IMG/VR virus record: IMGVR_UViG_3300036790_000219
Coordinates: 56,058-120,057 of that record
Reading direction: 5' to 3' (one strand)
Length of the DNA stretch: 64,000 bases
Source of the DNA: a virus
The position numbers were made by a program, and so were the translations under genes. Positions 6,288-13,314 of the stretch are shown one piece after another (position 1 is the first letter of the stretch; each line of letters starts with the position of its first letter). The notes beneath the pieces were generated by a model. The model made no database searches, was not told where the DNA came from, and saw nothing but the letters and a program-made list of their open reading frames with translations.

Positions 6288-7478
6288 ATGAAACACGAAC
6301 GTGACTTCCGCTCGGCTAGCGCATTCACGCCGCCCGAGCAGGTCCTGAACCGCCGTCGTTCTCTTGGACGGTTCCGGACCGTTGACATGTTGACTTTCGA
6401 CAAGGGTTACACCTTTGACGAAGGGGGTAACATGCGCGGTAAGTCTCTGGGTCAGGCGTTCAAGACCCACGACGGCCGTACGATTGACTCCACGGGAGCT
6501 TTCCTTGTGGGCGAACTTGAGCGTCTCGATCTGACACTCCACGAGCCATTGGCTGCGGTCAGTTGGGGTCGCGACATTCAACTTCGTGAAGACGTTACGA
6601 CGGCGGACGAGGTCTCCTCGTTCACGGTCTCGACGTACTACTCACCAGGTTCGCTTGGTACTGGTCAGGGTGTTGGCAACGCCAAGTCCTGGATCGGTAA
6701 AGACACCAACCAAGTGACTCGTGTGTCGGTTGACATCGCAAAGGTCACTCAACCTCTCATCCCGTGGGGCAAGGAACTTGCCTATACGGTTCTTGAGCTT
6801 GAGTCCGCTGCGAAGCTCGGCCGTCCGGTGGACGAGCAGAAGTACCGTGCACTCCAACTCGCCCATCAGATGGAAGTGGACGAAATGGTGTACTATGGTG
6901 ACACCCCTGGTGCCTTCTACGGTCTGGTCAATTCGAACAACCGTACGTTCATCGACCAGGTCACGAACGTTTCCAACGTCGCCAACGGTGCGCAAGGTTC
7001 GCCACTTTGGACGCAGAAGACGCCTGCTGAGATTCTTCAGGACTTCAATGAGGAACTGACCTCGGCATGGGCGGCTACGGGTTGGGCTATCCTGCCTGAT
7101 TCCATTCTGCTGCCACCAGCGGATTTTGGTTACATTTCAACCCAGACCGTGTCTACGGCTGGTAACGTATCCATTCTGAACTACGTGCTTGAAAACAATA
7201 TCACGGCACGGCAGGGTGGCGCAACGCTGGACATCAAGCCGGTCAAGTGGTGTTTGGGAACTGGCATAGGTGGTACGGTAGGGGTTGGTGCTGCGGGCCA
7301 TGATCGTATGGTGGTGTACACCAACGATAAGGAGCGCGTTCGCTACCCGATGACTATGTTAAGCAAGACGCCTCTCCAATATGACTCGATTTGGCATCGC
7401 TCAACTTATTATGGCCGTCTTGGCGTTTTGGAGATCGTCTACCCCGAATGTATATGTTATAGGGATGGAATCAGCTAG
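6288..7478 (+). CDS. Major capsid protein (DUF2184)
   Basis: DSTGAFLVGELERLD, YYGD...GLVNS, TPAEILQDFNE, C-terminal YPECICYRDGI. Confidence 0.92.
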   Translation: MKHERDFRSASAFTPPEQVLNRRRSLGRFRTVDMLTFDKGYTFDEGGNMRGKSLGQAFKTHDGRTIDSTGAFLVGELERLDLTLHEPLAAVSWGRDIQLREDVTTADEVSSFTVSTYYSPGSLGTGQGVGNAKSWIGKDTNQVTRVSVDIAKVTQPLIPWGKELAYTVLELESAAKLGRPVDEQKYRALQLAHQMEVDEMVYYGDTPGAFYGLVNSNNRTFIDQVTNVSNVANGAQGSPLWTQKTPAEILQDFNEELTSAWAATGWAILPDSILLPPADFGYISTQTVSTAGNVSILNYVLENNITARQGGATLDIKPVKWCLGTGIGGTVGVGAAGHDRMVVYTNDKERVRYPMTMLSKTPLQYDSIWHRSTYYGRLGVLEIVYPECICYRDGIS

Positions 7479-7553: not shown

Positions 7554-8555
7554 ATGCCTAAGCACACGATCTACGGCCTCTACGATCCGAGCGATCGGAA
7601 AAAGGAGGTTCGCTATGTTGGAGCAACTAAGTTCACGCCTGAGCAACGTTTAACTGATCACATCTCCGGTGCAGAAGCCGCAGACACTTATAAGAAGAAG
7701 TGGATCAGAAAACTGCTCAGGCAGAACTTGGTTCCTGCCATCCTAGTTCTTGAAGTCACAACGACGAGACACTGGAAGAAGCGGGAGAAGTATTGGATCG
7801 CCTACCTTCGTTCTAAAGGTAGCCGCCTAACGAACTCAACGGAAGGCGGGGAGGGCCTGGTCAACCCAACGAAAAATGTTCGGGCCAGGATTGCCAAGAA
7901 GGTTTCTGAGCTTCTTATTGGAAACCAACGCGCTACAGGAATGAGTCACACAAAAGAAGCCTGTCTGGCTATTTCGAAGGGATTACGGGAATCCAAGAAG
8001 TTTCAGCGGTCCCAGCGAAAATGGCGAGGGAAGGCGCGTTATACTCCAACCGAGGAATCTAAGCTCAAAATCTCCTTGGCTAACTTGGGAAGACCCCGTC
8101 CGGATGTACGAGCTCTTGCTCTTCGCTTAAACAAACGCCGGAAAGGTTCGGTCTGGGTAACAGATGGAAAGAGCAATAAGCAGATTCTAAAGGGAACCCC
8201 AATTCCTAAGGGATTTGTTTGTGGTCGGCTTATGACTTGGCAAGAACCTGGTAAGGGGCCGACGAAAGGGCGACGGTACATAACTAATGGAGTTGAAAAC
8301 CAGATGATCGAAATTTCGGCTCCAATCCCCGAGGGCTTTAAGTTTGGACAAACACGTCATAATCCGCGTCGGGATACAAAGGTAGGTTTAAGAAAATTGA
8401 GTGAAACAGTACGGCAACTTAAACTAGGTTTTCGTTTAATCACTGATGGTGCGGTTCGCCGTCAGCTTCCAAGGGATCAGGTACTTCCAGCGGGTTGGGT
8501 GTTTGTTAAAAAGAACACTCTAAAGTCGCTTACAACCTCGGTCTCGTTAGATTGA
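7554..8555 (+). mobile_element. Free-standing GIY-YIG homing endonuclease
   Basis: TIYGLYDP...RYVGAT, R..H, E.YWI, LTNSTEGGEG; three C-terminal W/Y/L-(I/V)T(D/N)G...(I/L)PxG(F/W) repeats. Confidence 0.85.
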
Positions 8556-9064: not shown

Positions 9065-9247
9065 ATGTCCGAGCGTACGCCAAGCTTCTTGATTCCGTGC
9101 GCGCTCGAAGTCGATGAGGACGGGGTCATTGTGAAAGTACTGCCCGACGTGGTCTGGCTTTCACAAACCCGTGTCCGTCTTGAAACTCACGGTGACACAA
9201 CGGACTTCCGGCTAGAACCTAAAGGAAAGGAAATGTCCAATGGTTGA
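9065..9247 (+). CDS. Small hypothetical protein
   Basis: Tightly packed between 8594..9061 and 9240..9563. Confidence 0.5.
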   Translation: MSERTPSFLIPCALEVDEDGVIVKVLPDVVWLSQTRVRLETHGDTTDFRLEPKGKEMSNG

Positions 9248-9563
9248 TTCTAACGACGCTCCTGTATCCGAGGCCCAGCGCAAAGCAATGGGCGCAGCGA
9301 TGGGTGGCCACTCTACCCTAGGGATCCCCAAGGCTGCAGGGAAAGAATTTATCGACAAGGACCCCGGTGGGAAGCTGCCGGAGAAGTCCAAGGATGCTAC
9401 CTCACCGAAGCCGGGCTCGGGACCGATGTCACCAAATGGTCCGCAAGGAAGTGAGGAGGGTCTGCCAAAAACTACCCGTTCCTTCGGAGCAGGAGATGGG
9501 GTTGGGAAAGCGATGAGTCTCGATGAAATAAAAAGCCAGGCCAAAAGAATCGGCCGTTATTAA
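9240..9563 (+). CDS. Small head accessory protein
   Basis: PVSEAQRKAMGAAMGGHSTLGIPKAAGKEF motif, which I recognise from head-module genes of DUF2213 phages. Confidence 0.7.
   Translation: MVDSNDAPVSEAQRKAMGAAMGGHSTLGIPKAAGKEFIDKDPGGKLPEKSKDATSPKPGSGPMSPNGPQGSEEGLPKTTRSFGAGDGVGKAMSLDEIKSQAKRIGRY
9526..9555 (-). terminator. Possible intrinsic terminator of the RAMP/array transcript
   Basis: Minus strand GGCCGA-TTCTT-TTGGCC, then TGGC and TTTTTATTT, just past the last GGT unit. Confidence 0.4.
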
Positions 9564-9628
9564 ACCATACCGAACCGAACCGGACGCTACCCCAACAAAC
9601 CACAACGTACCAAACCCCAACTTACCGC
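9564..9628 (-). ncRNA. Guide-like pentamer tract B (13 x NN-GGT/GTT)
   Basis: Plus strand ACCAT ACCGA ACCGA ACCGG ACGCT ACCCC AACAA ACCAC AACGT ACCAA ACCCC AACTT ACCGC; strict 5-nt period, constant 3 nt plus variable 2 nt. Confidence 0.85.
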
Positions 9629-9657
9629 ACAAAAAGTAGGAAATTTTCAAAACTAAA

Positions 9658-9727
9658 GCCACACCTCACCGCACCGCAACTAAACATTCCTGACCGTACC
9701 CGATCCGACCAGAACCCACCACACCTA
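9658..9727 (-). ncRNA. Guide-like pentamer tract A (14 x NN-GGY)
   Basis: Plus strand GCCAC ACCTC ACCGC ACCGC AACTA AACAT TCCTG ACCGT ACCCG ATCCG ACCAG AACCC ACCAC ACCTA; begins at the RAMP stop codon; 29-nt AT-rich linker to tract B. Confidence 0.85.
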
Positions 9728-10357
9728 AGTTTTGAATTTAGTTGTCTGAAATCGTCCATATGTAGGGCGGAAGTCTCCTAGAGCACAGAAACGTCCAGCA
9801 TTGGTTAGAGCGGAATTCAGGATATCCGGTGAGATATACTCGGGAAGAAGTACTTGGATATCAAAATCCAATTCCCAGCCAGTTTTGAGCGCTGGGCGGA
9901 CGCGAGTAATAGCGTTTCGCTGAATGACAGCACGACAGCGGTGTTCGTAGTGCCAATTTTTGGTTCCAACACTTGCGAGATCAGTTAATACCACAATGCC
10001 AGCTTTGAAAAGATCCATGGCTGATTTACGGGGTGATCGTGGATCTTGTAGGAACTTTGCTGCGTAGACGAGTGCCATACGTAGCTGCGTTCCTGGTACA
10101 CAAAGAAAACCTGCGTCGTTTCGATAGACGTAGGACTCAAGGTCATCGGTCTTTTTTTTTTTTTTTTTTGCTTTCGAGCCTTTTGCGGCATTCGCACTTT
10201 CAGCGACCGATTCACAGTTATATCGATGATATAGGTAATCGGCAACGCCACTGATAGTAACAGAAGCGACGTAAGGTTCAATAAGTTTGTTGGCCGCACC
10301 GTTGGTAGGAACTCCCCCACCAATAGATATGACTTCTGCAGTTACTCTTTTAGCCAT
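9725..10357 (-). CDS. Solo RAMP/Cas7-like RNA-binding protein (Vipr-like)
   Basis: N-terminal beta strand VTISGVADYLYH, VPGTQLRMAL helix, ITRVRP..GWELDFDI, C-terminal glycine loop AGRFCALGDFRPTYGRF; AAGGAG RBS. Confidence 0.8.
   Translation of the reverse strand: MAKRVTAEVISIGGGVPTNGAANKLIEPYVASVTISGVADYLYHRYNCESVAESANAAKGSKAKKKKKKTDDLESYVYRNDAGFLCVPGTQLRMALVYAAKFLQDPRSPRKSAMDLFKAGIVVLTDLASVGTKNWHYEHRCRAVIQRNAITRVRPALKTGWELDFDIQVLLPEYISPDILNSALTNAGRFCALGDFRPTYGRFQTTKFKT
10152..10169 (-). repeat. In-frame A18 homopolymer in the RAMP gene (Lys6)
   Basis: 18 consecutive T on the plus strand; no comparable run seen elsewhere in the window. Confidence 0.9.
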
Positions 10358-10503
10358 AGTAAGGTCTCCTTCGCGCCCAGCCAGTAAAGCCCGGAACGCG
10401 GTTCAGGGGTCACATTTCTGCGACACCAGACGCGAAGGAGGTTCGTGTAGGGTGCCGCGTTCTAAAGCCGGTTTACTGCCCAGCTACTAAGAACATACTG
10501 GGC
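10358..10503 (-). promoter_or_regulatory. Structured 5' leader of the RAMP gene with anti-Shine-Dalgarno
   Basis: CTCCTTCGCG (10366-75) / CGCGAAGGAG (10431-40); CAGTAAA/TTTACTG; GAACGCGG/CCGCGTTC; GCCCAG/CTGGGC. Confidence 0.6.
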
Positions 10504-10508
10504 ATTGA

Positions 10509-10517
10509 ATTTTATCA
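10509..10517 (-). promoter_or_regulatory. Possible extended -10 promoter for the RAMP cassette
   Basis: Minus strand TGA-TAAAAT; predicted start near 10503 matches the first leader stem. Confidence 0.45.
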
Positions 10518-10535
10518 AAATGGAGAAAGATCAAC

Positions 10536-10802
10536 ATGGTCGAAAAACCCAACTCCCAACCAGGTATCCCGCCGACGTCTGAACCGTCCAGCATGCGGCT
10601 ACAACAGCCAGGTGAGCCAGCGACGGTCGTGTCGGGAATGCCAGGTATTGGACAGCCCATCAAGCAGGGACCGTTGTATCGTGATGGCGCTCCGCCTAGC
10701 AAGTTCAAGTTGCCGGAATCGGTTACTCCGGCTGAGATCAAGGATCAGAGCTACCGTTATGGGGGTGGTAGATCAGCAGGGCGAAAGAGCACCGAACCAT
10801 GA
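10536..10802 (+). CDS. Hypothetical Pro-rich protein
   Basis: GGAG RBS; resumes the plus-strand operon. Confidence 0.55.
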   Translation: MVEKPNSQPGIPPTSEPSSMRLQQPGEPATVVSGMPGIGQPIKQGPLYRDGAPPSKFKLPESVTPAEIKDQSYRYGGGRSAGRKSTEP

Positions 10803-11008
10803 AACCTCGTGTCAAGATTATCAATCACGTTGGCCGTAGACGAACTGGCGACGCAGAAAATGAACAAGAAGCAGTTATTCTTATGGGGCGCGCAGCGTTT
10901 TGCGTGCGTGAAATTACGAGTCGAGCAAAAGCTAACGCTCAAATAACTGGAAGGGAGCTTGCACAACTTAAGCAAGCTGTAAAACTGTTGGAGAGCGTTG
11001 CTTACTAA
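10799..11008 (+). CDS. Small head-module protein
   Basis: ATGA overlap with upstream ORF; KIINH..RRTGD motif. Confidence 0.55.
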   Translation: MKPRVKIINHVGRRRTGDAENEQEAVILMGRAAFCVREITSRAKANAQITGRELAQLKQAVKLLESVAY

Positions 11009-11535
11009 TGATCACTCCTGGTACTTTTCGAGCGGATTGGCCTGAGTTTGGGAGCCTTTCGGTTTACCCAAACAACGTCGTTGCGTATTGGATCGCGATA
11101 GCTGGGATGCTTCTGAATACTGTGTATTGGGGCATTGGCTCAACGGTGGCTGTTGCTCCCCCCACAACGAAGTTGGATTTTGCCACTGAACTCTTCGTTG
11201 CCCACAATTTGGTCCTTGAGCAACAAGCCTTTGCTGCGGCGCAGAGTGGTGGTACGCCTGGTACACAACAAGGTGTTGTCACTAGCAAGTCCGTGGGTTC
11301 TGTCAGTCTCGGCTATTCGGTAGCAGAAGTTCTAAATCTTGACGGGAGTTTCTGGAACGCTACGAATTATGGCGTTCGGTTTCTCTGGTTAGCACGTTTG
11401 GTGGGTTCTGGCCCAATCCAAATTGGGATCGGCAAAGTACCACTGCCGTTTCTGACATTTGTGGGTTGGGGTGAGAGCGCGTGGGCCGGACCTTATCCAT
11501 ATCCTCAACAAGGTGATTCTGGTTTCTCAAGCTAA
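11008..11535 (+). CDS. Head-tail adaptor (DUF4054)
   Basis: FRADWPEF..YP, SKSVGSVSLGY, WNATNYGVRFLWLARLVGSGP. Confidence 0.85.
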   Translation: MITPGTFRADWPEFGSLSVYPNNVVAYWIAIAGMLLNTVYWGIGSTVAVAPPTTKLDFATELFVAHNLVLEQQAFAAAQSGGTPGTQQGVVTSKSVGSVSLGYSVAEVLNLDGSFWNATNYGVRFLWLARLVGSGPIQIGIGKVPLPFLTFVGWGESAWAGPYPYPQQGDSGFSS

Positions 11536-11975
11536 TGCACCGCAAATACGTCGTTCATAATACCCGTGATATCAGCTGGGTTGAGGAAGCTCGCGGGCGG
11601 GGCTTTACTGCTGGCTGGCGGAACGACCGTTGGCAGGACAATCCGTTTGATGATCCTAAGATGAACTTGGCTTGGCAGGCAGGATACAGACAGGGGCGCA
11701 ACAAGGCGCAGATGCGGTCAAATTATCATAAGGGTGAGCTCCGCAACAAGAAGTTCGAAGCTCCTAGTCGAGATTTCAAAAGTGAGAGAGGATTTCAGGC
11801 AAAAGTATTCTCAAGCACTGGCGGTGTGGTAGCAACGTCTCCACCATTCTTGAAAGAGCTCCCGGCCCAGCAGTGGGCTAGCAAGAAGATTGAAGAAGCC
11901 TTGAAGAAAGGCTTTCGTGTTTCTAGCAAGGTGTTTGCCGGTTTCTTTGATCCTTTCCAACTCAAGGAAGCTTAG
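11535..11975 (+). CDS. Hypothetical basic protein with Rmf-like motif
   Basis: GFTAG...NPF...AWQAGY; N-terminal VVHNTRD. Confidence 0.55.
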   Translation: MHRKYVVHNTRDISWVEEARGRGFTAGWRNDRWQDNPFDDPKMNLAWQAGYRQGRNKAQMRSNYHKGELRNKKFEAPSRDFKSERGFQAKVFSSTGGVVATSPPFLKELPAQQWASKKIEEALKKGFRVSSKVFAGFFDPFQLKEA

Positions 11976-11979
11976 TCCT

Positions 11980-12552
11980 GTGGCTGCTAAATCTGGCGTG
12001 GTTAAGACTGTAAGCAACCTTGCCAAAGTTATGGCTGGCATAAACTTGTTAGCCGGGACCGATGTAATGGTTGGTGTACCGAGCACTAAGGCCGGACGTA
12101 GAGAAGGACCCATCAACAACGCGGCACTTGCTTACATCCACGATAAAGGCGCACCGGCTGCTCACATTCCCGCCCGTCCGTTTATGGAGCCTGGTATCAA
12201 ATCCGTTCAGGCTAAGATTGCTGCTGAGCTTGAGAAAGCTGGACCGCTCGCTCTCCAAGGCAAGGTCTCCGGGGTCCAGACTACCCTCAACCGGGTAGGG
12301 ATCATCGCGAGTCAGGCGATAAAGGCCAAGATCTCAGAGGGTATCCCGCCGCCGCTGGCTCCTTCTACCATAAAGGGTAGAATTAGAAGAATCAAAGGCA
12401 AGAAACGGCGACAAAAAATTGCTGTTGCTTTAGCTTCGGGAGTAGCACCAAGTGTTCAGGGTGGCCAACCTGGGCTATTTGTGCCGTTAATTGTTACGGG
12501 AGCCCTTAGAAATTCAATAACGTATGTGCTTAGGAAGGCGCAGGGGAAGTAG
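11980..12552 (+). CDS. Neck/virion morphogenesis protein
   Basis: VMVGVP, NAALAYIHDKG, IPARPFM, PPLAPSTI, LIVTGALRNSITY; AAGGAAG precedes GTG 11980. Confidence 0.85.
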   Translation: MAAKSGVVKTVSNLAKVMAGINLLAGTDVMVGVPSTKAGRREGPINNAALAYIHDKGAPAAHIPARPFMEPGIKSVQAKIAAELEKAGPLALQGKVSGVQTTLNRVGIIASQAIKAKISEGIPPPLAPSTIKGRIRRIKGKKRRQKIAVALASGVAPSVQGGQPGLFVPLIVTGALRNSITYVLRKAQGK

Positions 12553-12561
12553 GATAAACTT

Positions 12562-13314
12562 TTGAGACATTATTTATACGTATTTACTTTTCCGAATGAA
12601 AAGCAATACTTTGGACACGCACGTGATGTGAAACGGCGATGGGTAGAGCATAAGAAAGCTGCCAAGCGCAATCGACAAACACCAATTTACCGTGCAATTC
12701 GTAAATACGGTTGGGGCGCCATTAAAAAGCAAGTCGTGGTTGTTGGCCCAGAAGACTATATTGTTGGAATGGAGGCTACCGCAATAGAAAAATTTAATAC
12801 CCTAGTTCCTCAGGGGTACAATCTCTCACCTGGGGGGTTTTCTGCACCAACTTCAAACCCCGAAGTAGCTGCCAAACTTAGCCGTTATATGATTGAGCGC
12901 TGGAAAGACCCCAAATACCGAGCGTATATTGAGGAGTGCTCTAGAAATCGAGAACCCACCAACGAAAGCCGTGACAAAATTTCTGTGGCTGCGCGTTTAA
13001 GATGGCAGAATCCAAATTACCGAGACAACTTTATCAAAAACCGAACTGGTAAGGGGCGTGGGCGAGTTTGGATAACTAATGGCAAGGCACGACGGTTAGT
13101 TCTTCCGGATGCGGAGCTACCTTTTGGTTGGGTTGTTGGAATGGGCCGAATTTATACGGCCCAGGAACTAAGAGCACGAAGTAACTCTATGCTTGGGCAC
13201 TTACGGATTACTAATGGGGCAGAAGAGCGGTGTATATCCCCAGAGACGCCTCTTCCTATAGGTTGGCATTACGGTCGTAAGTTGGGTATAGATTATAGTG
13301 GGAAATTCAAATGA
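12562..13314 (+). mobile_element. Free-standing GIY-YIG homing endonuclease
   Basis: YLYVFTFPNEKQYFG, RRWVEH, AIRKYG, GYNLSPGG; WKDPKYR/WQNPNYR repeats and two ITNG..LPxGW repeats. Confidence 0.85.

What the first reader, a model, noticed from the sequence alone, without database searches (positions are those of the whole stretch)
9450..9628. Tract B decodes to the neighbouring head gene, skipping every wobble base
Seen: plus-strand NN of tract B are AT GA GA GG CT CC AA AC GT AA CC TT GC. The ORF 9240..9563 codons at 9450-9488 are AGt GAg GAg GGt CTg CCa AAa ACt ACc CGt TCc TTc GGa. Seven consecutive dinucleotides match exactly (14/14 nt), 19/26 overall, with the skipped base always at codon position 3. 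Rough chance: 4^-14 x 128,000 positions x ~15 windows is about 0.007 window-wide, and the hit is only ~100 bp from the array. The guide would pair with the coding strand. Inference: the true target is the homologous gene of a related phage, predicted peptide (I/M)(D/E)(D/E)GLP(K/N)TV(K/N)P(F/L)A versus SEEGLPKTTRSFG here. The resident allele would have diverged to escape, much like a homing site, and wobble skipping would blunt synonymous escape.
Basis: partly seen in the sequence, partly recalled or inferred. Interest (0 to 1): 0.93.

Follow-up and report, generated by a model that had tools for sequence, protein, structure and literature searches.

The report
VIPR guide aimed at rival allele
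The five-letter repeat tract is a guide RNA of a VIPR system, a phage RNA-guided gene silencer first described in 2026. Its code spells 12 of 12 codons of a rival version of the neighbouring gene but only 7 of 12 of the phage's own copy, so this is a well-decoded new example of a known kind.

Summary
Tract B's dinucleotides match the codon positions 1-2 of window 9450-9488 at 19 of 26 letters, with 7 exact units in a row. Shuffled guides reach a 7-unit run anywhere in the 120-kb phage genome in only about 1% of cases.

The cassette is a VIPR system, described in three 2026 bioRxiv preprints. It has a Vipr gene (9725..10357, minus strand) followed by two GGY-NN vrRNA tracts.

A metagenomic homologue of the neighbouring gene, P0013, reads EEGLPKTVKPFA. 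That fits 12 of 12 guide units (23-24 of 24 letters). No shuffled guide among 2000 scored above 20. The phage's own copy fits 18 of 24 (75%), below the published 80% cut-off. Its KTTRSF motif is unique among 26 homologues.

Three things stay open. P0013's DNA and its neighbouring genes could not be fetched. Tract A has no target. Expression and binding were not tested.

This scan has already noted VIPR loci in at least 268 other genomes. Verdict: a new member of a known kind. The target is an allele of the gene that flanks the cassette, which is a neat detail. Interest is moderate.

The parts
9725..10357 (-). vipr gene (P0001, 210 aa), a stand-alone Cas7-like RAMP protein
   Evidence: Translation. 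A profile of 31 homologues matches PDB 36pp_D, 'SUSP1 Vipr protein', at E 1.6e-10 over 34-204 of 210. The single sequence gives E 5.5e-5. The AF2 model's top Foldseek hits are Cas7/Csm3. It matches phrog_4652 and has 6208 homologues.
9656..9725 (-). vrRNA tract A: 14 GGY-NN pentamers that start inside the vipr stop codon. The first 12 NN are taken as guide (GT GG CT CG CG AC CA AT TA GC GC GA). The last two pentamers (GGTGT GGCTT) fit the clade's 3' end motif.
   Evidence: No target was found.
9632..9655 (-). AT-rich 24-nt spacer, or short tail of vrRNA A, between the two tracts
   Evidence: Sequence. No Rfam family, and so no hammerhead match.
9562..9631 (-). vrRNA tract B: 14 pentamers. Guide NN units 1-12 are GC AA GG TT AC GT TT GG AG CC TC TC. 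The last two pentamers (GGTAT GGTTT) are tail-like and overlap the stop codon of 9240..9563 by 2 nt.
   Evidence: Target decoded.
9539..9555 (-). Terminator-like hairpin plus T run after tract B, lying antisense inside the 3' end of the neighbouring gene
   Evidence: This is a consensus scan only, and the count is no higher than in shuffles.
9453..9487 (+). Resident, sub-threshold copy of the tract B target (EEGLPKTTRSFG). It matches 18 of 24 letters. Seven units are exact, and the mismatches sit opposite guide units 1, 3, 4 and 5.
9240..9563 (+). Neighbouring gene (P0002, 107 aa, function unknown) whose C-terminal tail module carries the target motif
10358..10535 (-). Leader and presumed promoter region of the cassette, predicted to be structured
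   Evidence: The RNA fold has a z-score of -3.2. No sigma-70 consensus and no Rfam match.

Best explanation
The inverted 1-kb cassette is a minimal VIPR system: a vipr gene, two vrRNAs and no vap gene.

By analogy with the SUSP1 system, Vipr protomers polymerise on the GGY scaffold of each vrRNA and present the NN dinucleotides. The filament binds double-stranded DNA whose sequence matches NNxNNx... and blocks transcription.

vrRNA B is programmed against the motif EEGLPKTVKPFA in the C-terminal tail module of a P0013-type gene. That gene is carried by a rival mobile element, either a sibling phage or a satellite. It is allelic to the gene that flanks the cassette.

The skipped base falls on the wobble position, so synonymous changes cannot free the rival. 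The phage's own copy differs at four of the twelve units (75% match), so it is spared.

What is shown here: the anatomy, the homology to Vipr, the fit of the code to P0013, and the sub-threshold self match. What is inferred: expression, RNP assembly, DNA binding, silencing and the competitive benefit.
For: Vipr homology:
- The family profile matches the solved SUSP1 Vipr at E 1.6e-10 over nearly the full length.
- The model has a RAMP/Cas7 fold.

vrRNA anatomy:
- There are only two GGY-NN tracts in the 120-kb genome. Both lie directly downstream of vipr on its strand.
- 70 of 80 IMG/VR loci that encode relatives of the protein have such tracts on the vipr strand, against 2 on the other strand.

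The rule works in this clade:
- A guide of L005 reads the conserved RTRPALKAGW motif in the vipr genes of L027, L054 and L056 at 19 of 20 letters.
- The skipped base falls on the wobble position there too. About 1e-4 such hits are expected by chance.

The target:
- P0013 fits 12 of 12 units (23-24 of 24 letters).
- P0172 fits 10 of 12 units (20-21 of 24 letters).
- The resident copy fits 7 of 12 units and 18 of 24 letters (DNA scan).
- All other homologues score 20 of 24 or less.
- 2000 guides with shuffled unit order reached at most 20 of 24 on the same 167 homologues.

Self versus non-self:
- The self match of 75% (68% if all 14 units are counted) is below the 80% cut-off of the paper, which also reports no self-target at 80% or more.
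- The resident R-S replaces E/K-P, which is conserved in 20-21 of 26 homologues.

The cassette is an insertion:
- L001 keeps the two flanking genes next to each other, with a different small inverted ORF between them.

The mechanism (1-nt skip, no PAM, either strand, transcriptional repression) comes.
Against: - The DNA of P0013 was never seen, so the fit rests on the protein sequence and the Leu codon could be TTR.
- P0013's owner and its gene neighbourhood are unknown.
- The protein is only remotely related to the one Vipr studied by experiment. The single sequence aligns only over its C-terminal 57 residues.
- No vap gene and no pseudoknot tail were found.
- There is no RNA evidence that the tracts are transcribed or processed, and no promoter consensus was found.
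- Tract A has no target anywhere that was searched.
- Differences between P0002 and P0013 are about as dense in the 15 residues before the target as inside it, so escape by selection is not demonstrated.
Confidence: 0.78

Rival explanations
1. Self-regulation. vrRNA B is meant for the phage's own site at 9453-9487. Partial pairing (7 contiguous units, 18 of 24 letters) lets Vipr dampen or time transcription of the phage's own head-neck operon.
For: The site is the only 7-unit run in the genome and lies about 100 bp from the tract. No mismatch-tolerance data appear in the structural paper. The paper reports that the RNP binds imperfect substrates when no competitor is present.
Against: A homologue fits all 12 units, which self-regulation does not predict. 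The self match is below the published 80% cut-off, and the paper found no self-targets. By total letters the site is no better than another random site in the genome.
Confidence: 0.08
2. Chance. The 7-unit run and the P0013 fit are coincidences in a low-complexity, Gly/Pro/Lys-rich linker.
For: A run of 7 or more units arises in about 1% of shuffled guides genome-wide. The adjacency was noticed after the fact.
Against: Extending from 7 to 12 exact units in a homologue, in the same register, has a chance of order 4^-10 per allele. No shuffle among 2000 exceeded 20 of 24 on the homologue set.
Confidence: 0.02
3. Relic or copy. Tract B was derived from an ancestral version of the adjacent gene, for instance by some unknown templated guide-making process or an old self-match, and has no present target. 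P0013 merely keeps the ancestral sequence.
For: The guide sits next to its own gene family. The guide fits the family consensus EGLPKTVEPF at 10 of 12 units. How vrRNAs acquire new specificities is not described in the three papers read.
Against: The guide carries K (AA) where 19 of 26 homologues have E. This matches a specific present-day subclade, P0013 and P0172. The GGY scaffold is well kept, with 9 of 14 strict GGY and the rest differing at one position. Nothing in the locus looks like acquisition machinery.
Confidence: 0.07

Closest known systems
VIPR systems (Vipr plus vrRNA). The experimental exemplar is type II of Escherichia phage SUSP1 (bioRxiv 10.64898/2026.04.26.720920; structures in 10.64898/2026.04.26.720927, PDB 36pp).
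   Same: A stand-alone RAMP protein homologous to SUSP1 Vipr. vrRNAs of 12-14 GGY-NN pentamers on the same strand next to the gene. A target that fits the 1-nt-skip rule with the skip on the wobble base. Carried by a phage. The target lies in another mobile element. The self match is below 80%.
   Different: Only remote sequence similarity to SUSP1 Vipr. No vap gene in the cassette. A short U-rich end motif (GGYRTGGNTTT) instead of a roughly 40-nt pseudoknot tail. Only two guides. The cassette is inverted inside the head-neck module. The type (I-VII) could not be assigned, because the paper's tree and tables were not read.
Solo and VIPR+ vrRNAs that target relatives' vipr genes or vrRNAs, with self-match scores lower than non-self scores (bioRxiv 10.64898/2026.10.15.759431)
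   Same: Guides aimed at a close relative's version of a locus that the carrier also has. The carrier's own copy scores lower and so avoids autoimmunity. Targets are aligned on the wobble position.
   Different: Here the target is not the VIPR locus. It is the ordinary gene that flanks the cassette, and the immune allele and the cassette are physically linked within about 100 bp.
Cas7/Csm3 backbone subunits of class 1 CRISPR effectors (types III and VII)
   Same: The best structural matches of the model (Foldseek probability 1.0, TM about 0.5). Both use periodic interruption of guide-target pairing by a thumb.
   Different: No CRISPR array and no other cas genes. The period is 5 nt on the guide against 3 nt on the target, rather than 6 against 6.
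Homing endonuclease genes and marker exclusion in T-even-type phages (functional analogy only)
   Same: A selfish cassette sits next to a gene whose allele in cassette-free relatives is recognised, while the resident allele is immune. Two homing-endonuclease-like genes lie in the same structural module.
   Different: The cassette has no nuclease, so no double-strand break or repair-driven copying is expected. Any drive would come from silencing plus linkage.

Membership tests
VIPR system | A Vipr protein: a single-RRM RAMP homologous to characterised Vipr | tested here: met
   Profile against PDB 36pp_D (SUSP1 Vipr) gives E 1.6e-10 over 34-204 of 210 against 5-188 of 202. The model's best fold matches are Cas7/Csm3. 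The Foldseek library predates entry 36pp, so no direct fold comparison with a Vipr structure was possible.
VIPR system | vrRNA: 9-16 tandem YNNGG (GGY/NN) pentamers next to vipr, with a conserved scaffold and variable NN | tested here: met
   Two tracts of 14 pentamers lie directly after the stop codon on the vipr strand, and they are the only ones in the genome. The same arrangement is seen in 70 of 80 related loci.
VIPR system | An invariable, structured 3' tail (a pseudoknot in the SUSP1 clade) | tested here: inconclusive
   No pseudoknot or Rfam match was found. A short shared end motif, GGYRTGGNTTT(T)A, closes tracts here and in about 11 distinct tracts of relatives. The paper says architectures differ between types.
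VIPR system | The NN series matches a natural DNA target under the 1-nt-skip rule at 80% or more | tested here: met
   Tract B against P0013 scores 23-24 of 24, inferred from the protein. Shuffles reach 20 at most. The DNA of the target was not available. Tract A has no target.
VIPR system | No self-target at 80% NN match or more | tested here: met
   The best self hits are 18 of 24 (19 of 28) for B and 18 of 24 (19 of 28) for A.
VIPR system | An accessory vap gene beside vipr (said to be typical, not universal) | tested here: not met
   The cassette between the two flanking plus-strand genes holds only vipr. No neighbour is shared by most of the 80 relatives. The commonest neighbours are phage replication genes (AAA_24, DUF669, RusA, helicase) in 16-19 loci.
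VIPR system | vrRNA expression, co-purification with Vipr, dsDNA binding and transcriptional repression | not testable with these tools
CRISPR-Cas | A repeat-spacer array and further cas genes | tested here: not met
   TRF finds no such array around the locus. The ORF list shows only a lone RAMP gene.

The most novel reading that the evidence does not exclude
The cassette works as a nuclease-free drive. It is welded, within 100 bp, to an immune allele of its own target. In mixed infection it silences the late operon of relatives that carry the sensitive P0013-type allele. Progeny are then enriched for genomes, including recombinants, that carry the immune allele and with it the cassette. This would be a homing-like spread achieved by RNA-guided repression and linkage rather than by DNA cleavage.
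Probability: 0.2. Interest if true: 0.6.

Novelty: new member of a known kind. Interest (0 to 1): 0.38.

Why it matters
This gives a clean natural example, outside the Enterobacteria and Pseudomonas systems studied so far, in which a VIPR guide can be decoded to a specific target.

A peptide predicted from the guide alone was then found in metagenomic data. This shows that the 1-nt-skip code can be used to predict targets in a distant Vipr clade that has no vap gene and thousands of members.

It also shows a guide that discriminates between alleles of the gene right beside the cassette. That raises the testable idea that VIPR cassettes can promote their own spread through linkage to an immune allele.

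The mechanism itself (gapped code, wobble skipping, rivalry between phages) is already in print, so it adds no new principle.

Tried and rejected
Fetching P0013's DNA and context failed by every route:
- The exact 13-, 12- and 11-unit tract B patterns gave nothing in IMG/VR.
- P0002 and the alignments A2 and A4 were searched against IMG/VR, JGI metagenomes and GTDB genomes. They gave only L001, a 52% relative, and loci that share just the N-terminal module of P0013.
- INPHARED phages have nothing similar by DNA, and only two remote protein hits.

The tract A target was not found:
- Own genome.
- 160 fetched loci.
- Exact 12-unit pattern in IMG/VR and GTDB genomes.
- Five complete phages of about 110 kb, with up to 3 mismatches.
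- Protein-level scan of 287 proteins in both senses.

Other dead ends and rejected ideas:
- Those five large IMG/VR phages have no P0002 homologue, so they are not close kin.
- Rfam has no family in 9300-10700, so there is no hammerhead between the guides.
- No sigma-70 promoter consensus was found.
- I considered that all 14 pentamers of tract B are guide. P0013 would still score 23-25 of 28 (82-89%), so the conclusion does not depend on the 12-unit reading.
- I considered that the escape changes are enriched inside the target. The difference density there (4 of 12) is like that of the preceding linker (5 of 15), so I do not claim enrichment.

Full report
What is there. The window is the right-hand 64 kb of a 120,057-bp virus record. 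A head-neck module is transcribed on the plus strand: the major head protein gene 6288..7478, a homing-endonuclease-like gene 7554..8555, a virion protein gene 11008..11535 and the Neck1 gene 11917..12552. Inside this module, a cassette of about 1 kb lies on the minus strand. It holds one ORF, 9725..10357 (P0001, 210 aa). Two tracts with a strict 5-nt period start inside the ORF's stop codon. On the RNA-sense (minus) strand they read as (GGY-like triplet + NN) x 14. Tract A runs 9725..9656 and tract B runs 9631..9562, with 24 AT-rich bases between them. A terminator-like hairpin follows tract B at 9555..9539. These are the only such tracts in the whole genome.

Checking the observation. The codons at 9450-9488 are as quoted and are in frame. 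There are 19 of 26 letters matching, 7 exact units in a row, and the skipped base is always at codon position 3. In shuffles of the guide, a run of 7 or more units anywhere in the genome on either strand occurred in 3 to 6 of 400 cases. By total letters the site is not unusual, since a second site also scores 19 of 28. The run length and the adjacency carry the signal.

What it is. P0001 matches one solved structure by sequence: 36pp, 'SUSP1 Vipr protein' (E 5.5e-5 for the single sequence). A profile of 31 homologues raises this to E 1.6e-10 over almost the whole length. An AlphaFold model (pLDDT 74) finds Cas7/Csm3 subunits of type III and VII CRISPR effectors as its best structural matches.

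The literature search leads to three 2026 preprints on VIPR (Viral Interference Programmable Repeat) systems:
- vrRNAs consist of 9-16 GGY/NN pentamers plus a 3' tail.
- Vipr polymerises on the GGY motifs.
- The NN dinucleotides pair with double-stranded DNA while every third target base is skipped.
- The skipped base usually falls on the codon wobble position.
- There is no PAM, either strand works, and the outcome is transcriptional repression.
- Natural targets are competing phages, satellites and other VIPR loci.
- A natural target is defined as an NN match of 80% or more, and no self-target reaches that.

They are correct, and they are already in print.

Does the family behave that way? 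The protein has 6208 homologues in the metagenomic protein collection. Of 80 IMG/VR loci that encode relatives, 70 carry GGY-NN tracts flanking the gene on its own strand, and only 2 carry them on the other strand. I tested 1462 ten-unit guide windows from these loci against all fetched DNA. This gave five hits at 19 of 20 letters, where about 1e-4 are expected by chance. A guide of L005 reads the conserved Vipr motif R-T-R-P-A-L/V-K-A-G-W in the vipr genes of three other loci, with the skipped base on the wobble position. So the published code and the published habit of targeting rivals' vipr genes both hold in this distant clade.

A search with the neighbouring protein (P0002) found 51 homologues. 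In the alignment, P0013 (94 aa, seen on six Logan/ENA contigs) reads GS-EEGLPKTVKPFA-GD where the resident protein reads GS-EEGLPKTTRSFG-AGD. All amino acids except Leu, Ser and Arg fix codon positions 1 and 2, so the protein sequence alone determines 11 of the 12 units. The scores out of 24 letters are as follows:
- P0013: 23-24, with 12 of 12 units compatible.
- P0172, its closest relative: 20-21.
- The resident copy: 18 by the DNA scan.
- Every other homologue: 20 or less.

On the same 167 homologues, 2000 guides with shuffled unit order never exceeded 20, and reversed controls gave 16-19.

The only predicted residue that fails is the first one (I/M, unit AT). That unit and the following TT unit form GGTAT-GGTTT. 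Tract A ends in the matching GGTGT-GGCTT, and the motif GGYRTGGNTTT(T)A closes tracts in about eleven distinct cases among relatives while being rare elsewhere. I therefore read the guides as 12 units plus a short tail. If all 14 units are counted, P0013 still scores 82-89%.

Self against non-self. The resident site scores 75% (12 units) or 68% (14 units), below the published cut-off. Its mismatches lie opposite guide units 1, 3, 4 and 5. Among 26 homologues that keep the motif, the positions before the Phe are E (19) or K (2), then P (20). The resident's R-S is unique. The guide carries K, not the majority E, so it is tuned to the P0013/P0172 subclade. This fits an immune resident allele. However, P0002 and P0013 differ about as densely in the 15 residues before the target as inside it, so I cannot show that selection against self-targeting caused the changes.

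Context of the target. The targeted motif lies in a C-terminal tail module (…PKPASGPMST.GP.G.SEGLPKTVEPF…MSLDEIK..KRIGRY). This tail is fused to at least three unrelated N-terminal modules, as seen in P0002, P0013 and L001. Its function is unknown, with no Pfam or annotated PHROG family, so 'head gene' is not established. The one relative for which DNA was available (L001, a 1.4-kb JGI contig) keeps the same two flanking genes. Its P0288 homologue is 46% identical. Between them it has a different inverted ORF of about 99 aa in place of vipr. The site is therefore a hot spot for inverted cassettes, and the VIPR cassette is an insertion.

How it most likely works. By homology, Vipr and vrRNA B form a filament that binds the P0013-type site on a co-infecting or resident rival. 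There it blocks transcription through the rival's late operon, while the phage's own late operon is spared. Whether the rival is a sibling phage or a satellite that borrows structural genes (as in SUSP1) cannot be decided, because P0013's contigs could not be fetched. Expression, processing, binding and benefit are all inferred.

Rivals. Self-regulation through the partial match is possible but does not predict a perfect match elsewhere. Chance is excluded by the shuffles. A relic or copied guide is argued against by the subclade-specific K unit and the intact scaffold.

Loose ends. Tract A would read VGLRRT[HQ][IM]YAA[DE] in wobble phase, or SAAY[IM][CW]VRR[SR]PT on the other strand. It has no target in anything I could search. 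The cassette has no vap gene, and relatives share none. The VIPR type could not be assigned.

Novelty. The system, its code, the wobble logic and the rule of self below non-self are all published. This scan has itself noted VIPR loci 342 times in at least 268 genomes. This locus is a new member. Its points of interest are a successful blind prediction of a target peptide, and a guide that discriminates between alleles of the gene next to the cassette. The second point allows, but does not show, a linkage-based homing-like spread.

Noticed in passing
window 10152-10169: An A18 run (T18 on the plus strand) inside vipr encodes four extra lysines (KAKKKKKKTDD) compared with KAKKTDD in all 30 aligned homologues. 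The segment aligns with SSKRKKTDE of SUSP1 Vipr. That lies near K33, which the structural paper says contacts the DNA backbone beside the skipped base. It could be a slippage-prone switch or an assembly artefact.
   Followed up: partly
window 10358-10535 (minus strand): The leader upstream of vipr folds more stably than shuffles (-68.4 kcal/mol, z -3.2). A long stem pairs CUCCUUCGCG with the region of the ribosome-binding site. There is no Rfam family and no sigma-70 consensus.
   Followed up: partly
L001:838-1164: In a JGI soil or peat contig, the gap between the homologues of 9240..9563 and 10536..10802 is 323 bp. It holds a different inverted ORF of about 99 aa with no known family. The same intergenic site takes different inverted cassettes.
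   Followed up: partly
L005:3129-3178, with targets at L027:3415-3443, L054:3451-3479 and L056:3451-3479: A vrRNA of one IMG/VR phage spells the conserved RTRPALKAGW motif of the vipr genes of three other phages at 19 of 20 letters, in wobble phase. A guide of L013 likewise hits L041 and L053 about 450 bp upstream of their vipr genes.
   Followed up: partly
L026, L031, L033, L037, L041, L044-L046 and others: In 16-19 IMG/VR relatives, vipr sits in a phage replication and recombination module (AAA_24/Sak4-like, DUF669, vipr, RusA, DEAD-box helicase) rather than in a structural module. Some loci have very long tracts (up to 60 pentamers in L005).
   Followed up: partly
window 9240-9563, plus P0013 and L001:545-841: One conserved C-terminal tail module (…ASGPMST.GP…EGLPKTVEPF…MSLDEIK..KRIGRY) is fused to at least three unrelated short N-terminal modules in different phages. 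Many homologues of 58-66 aa consist of an N-terminal module alone.
   Followed up: partly
window 7554-8555 and 12562-13314: Two homing-endonuclease-like genes (phrog_314; the second also matches GIY-YIG families) interrupt the same head-neck module. The region is rich in selfish insertions.
   Followed up: no
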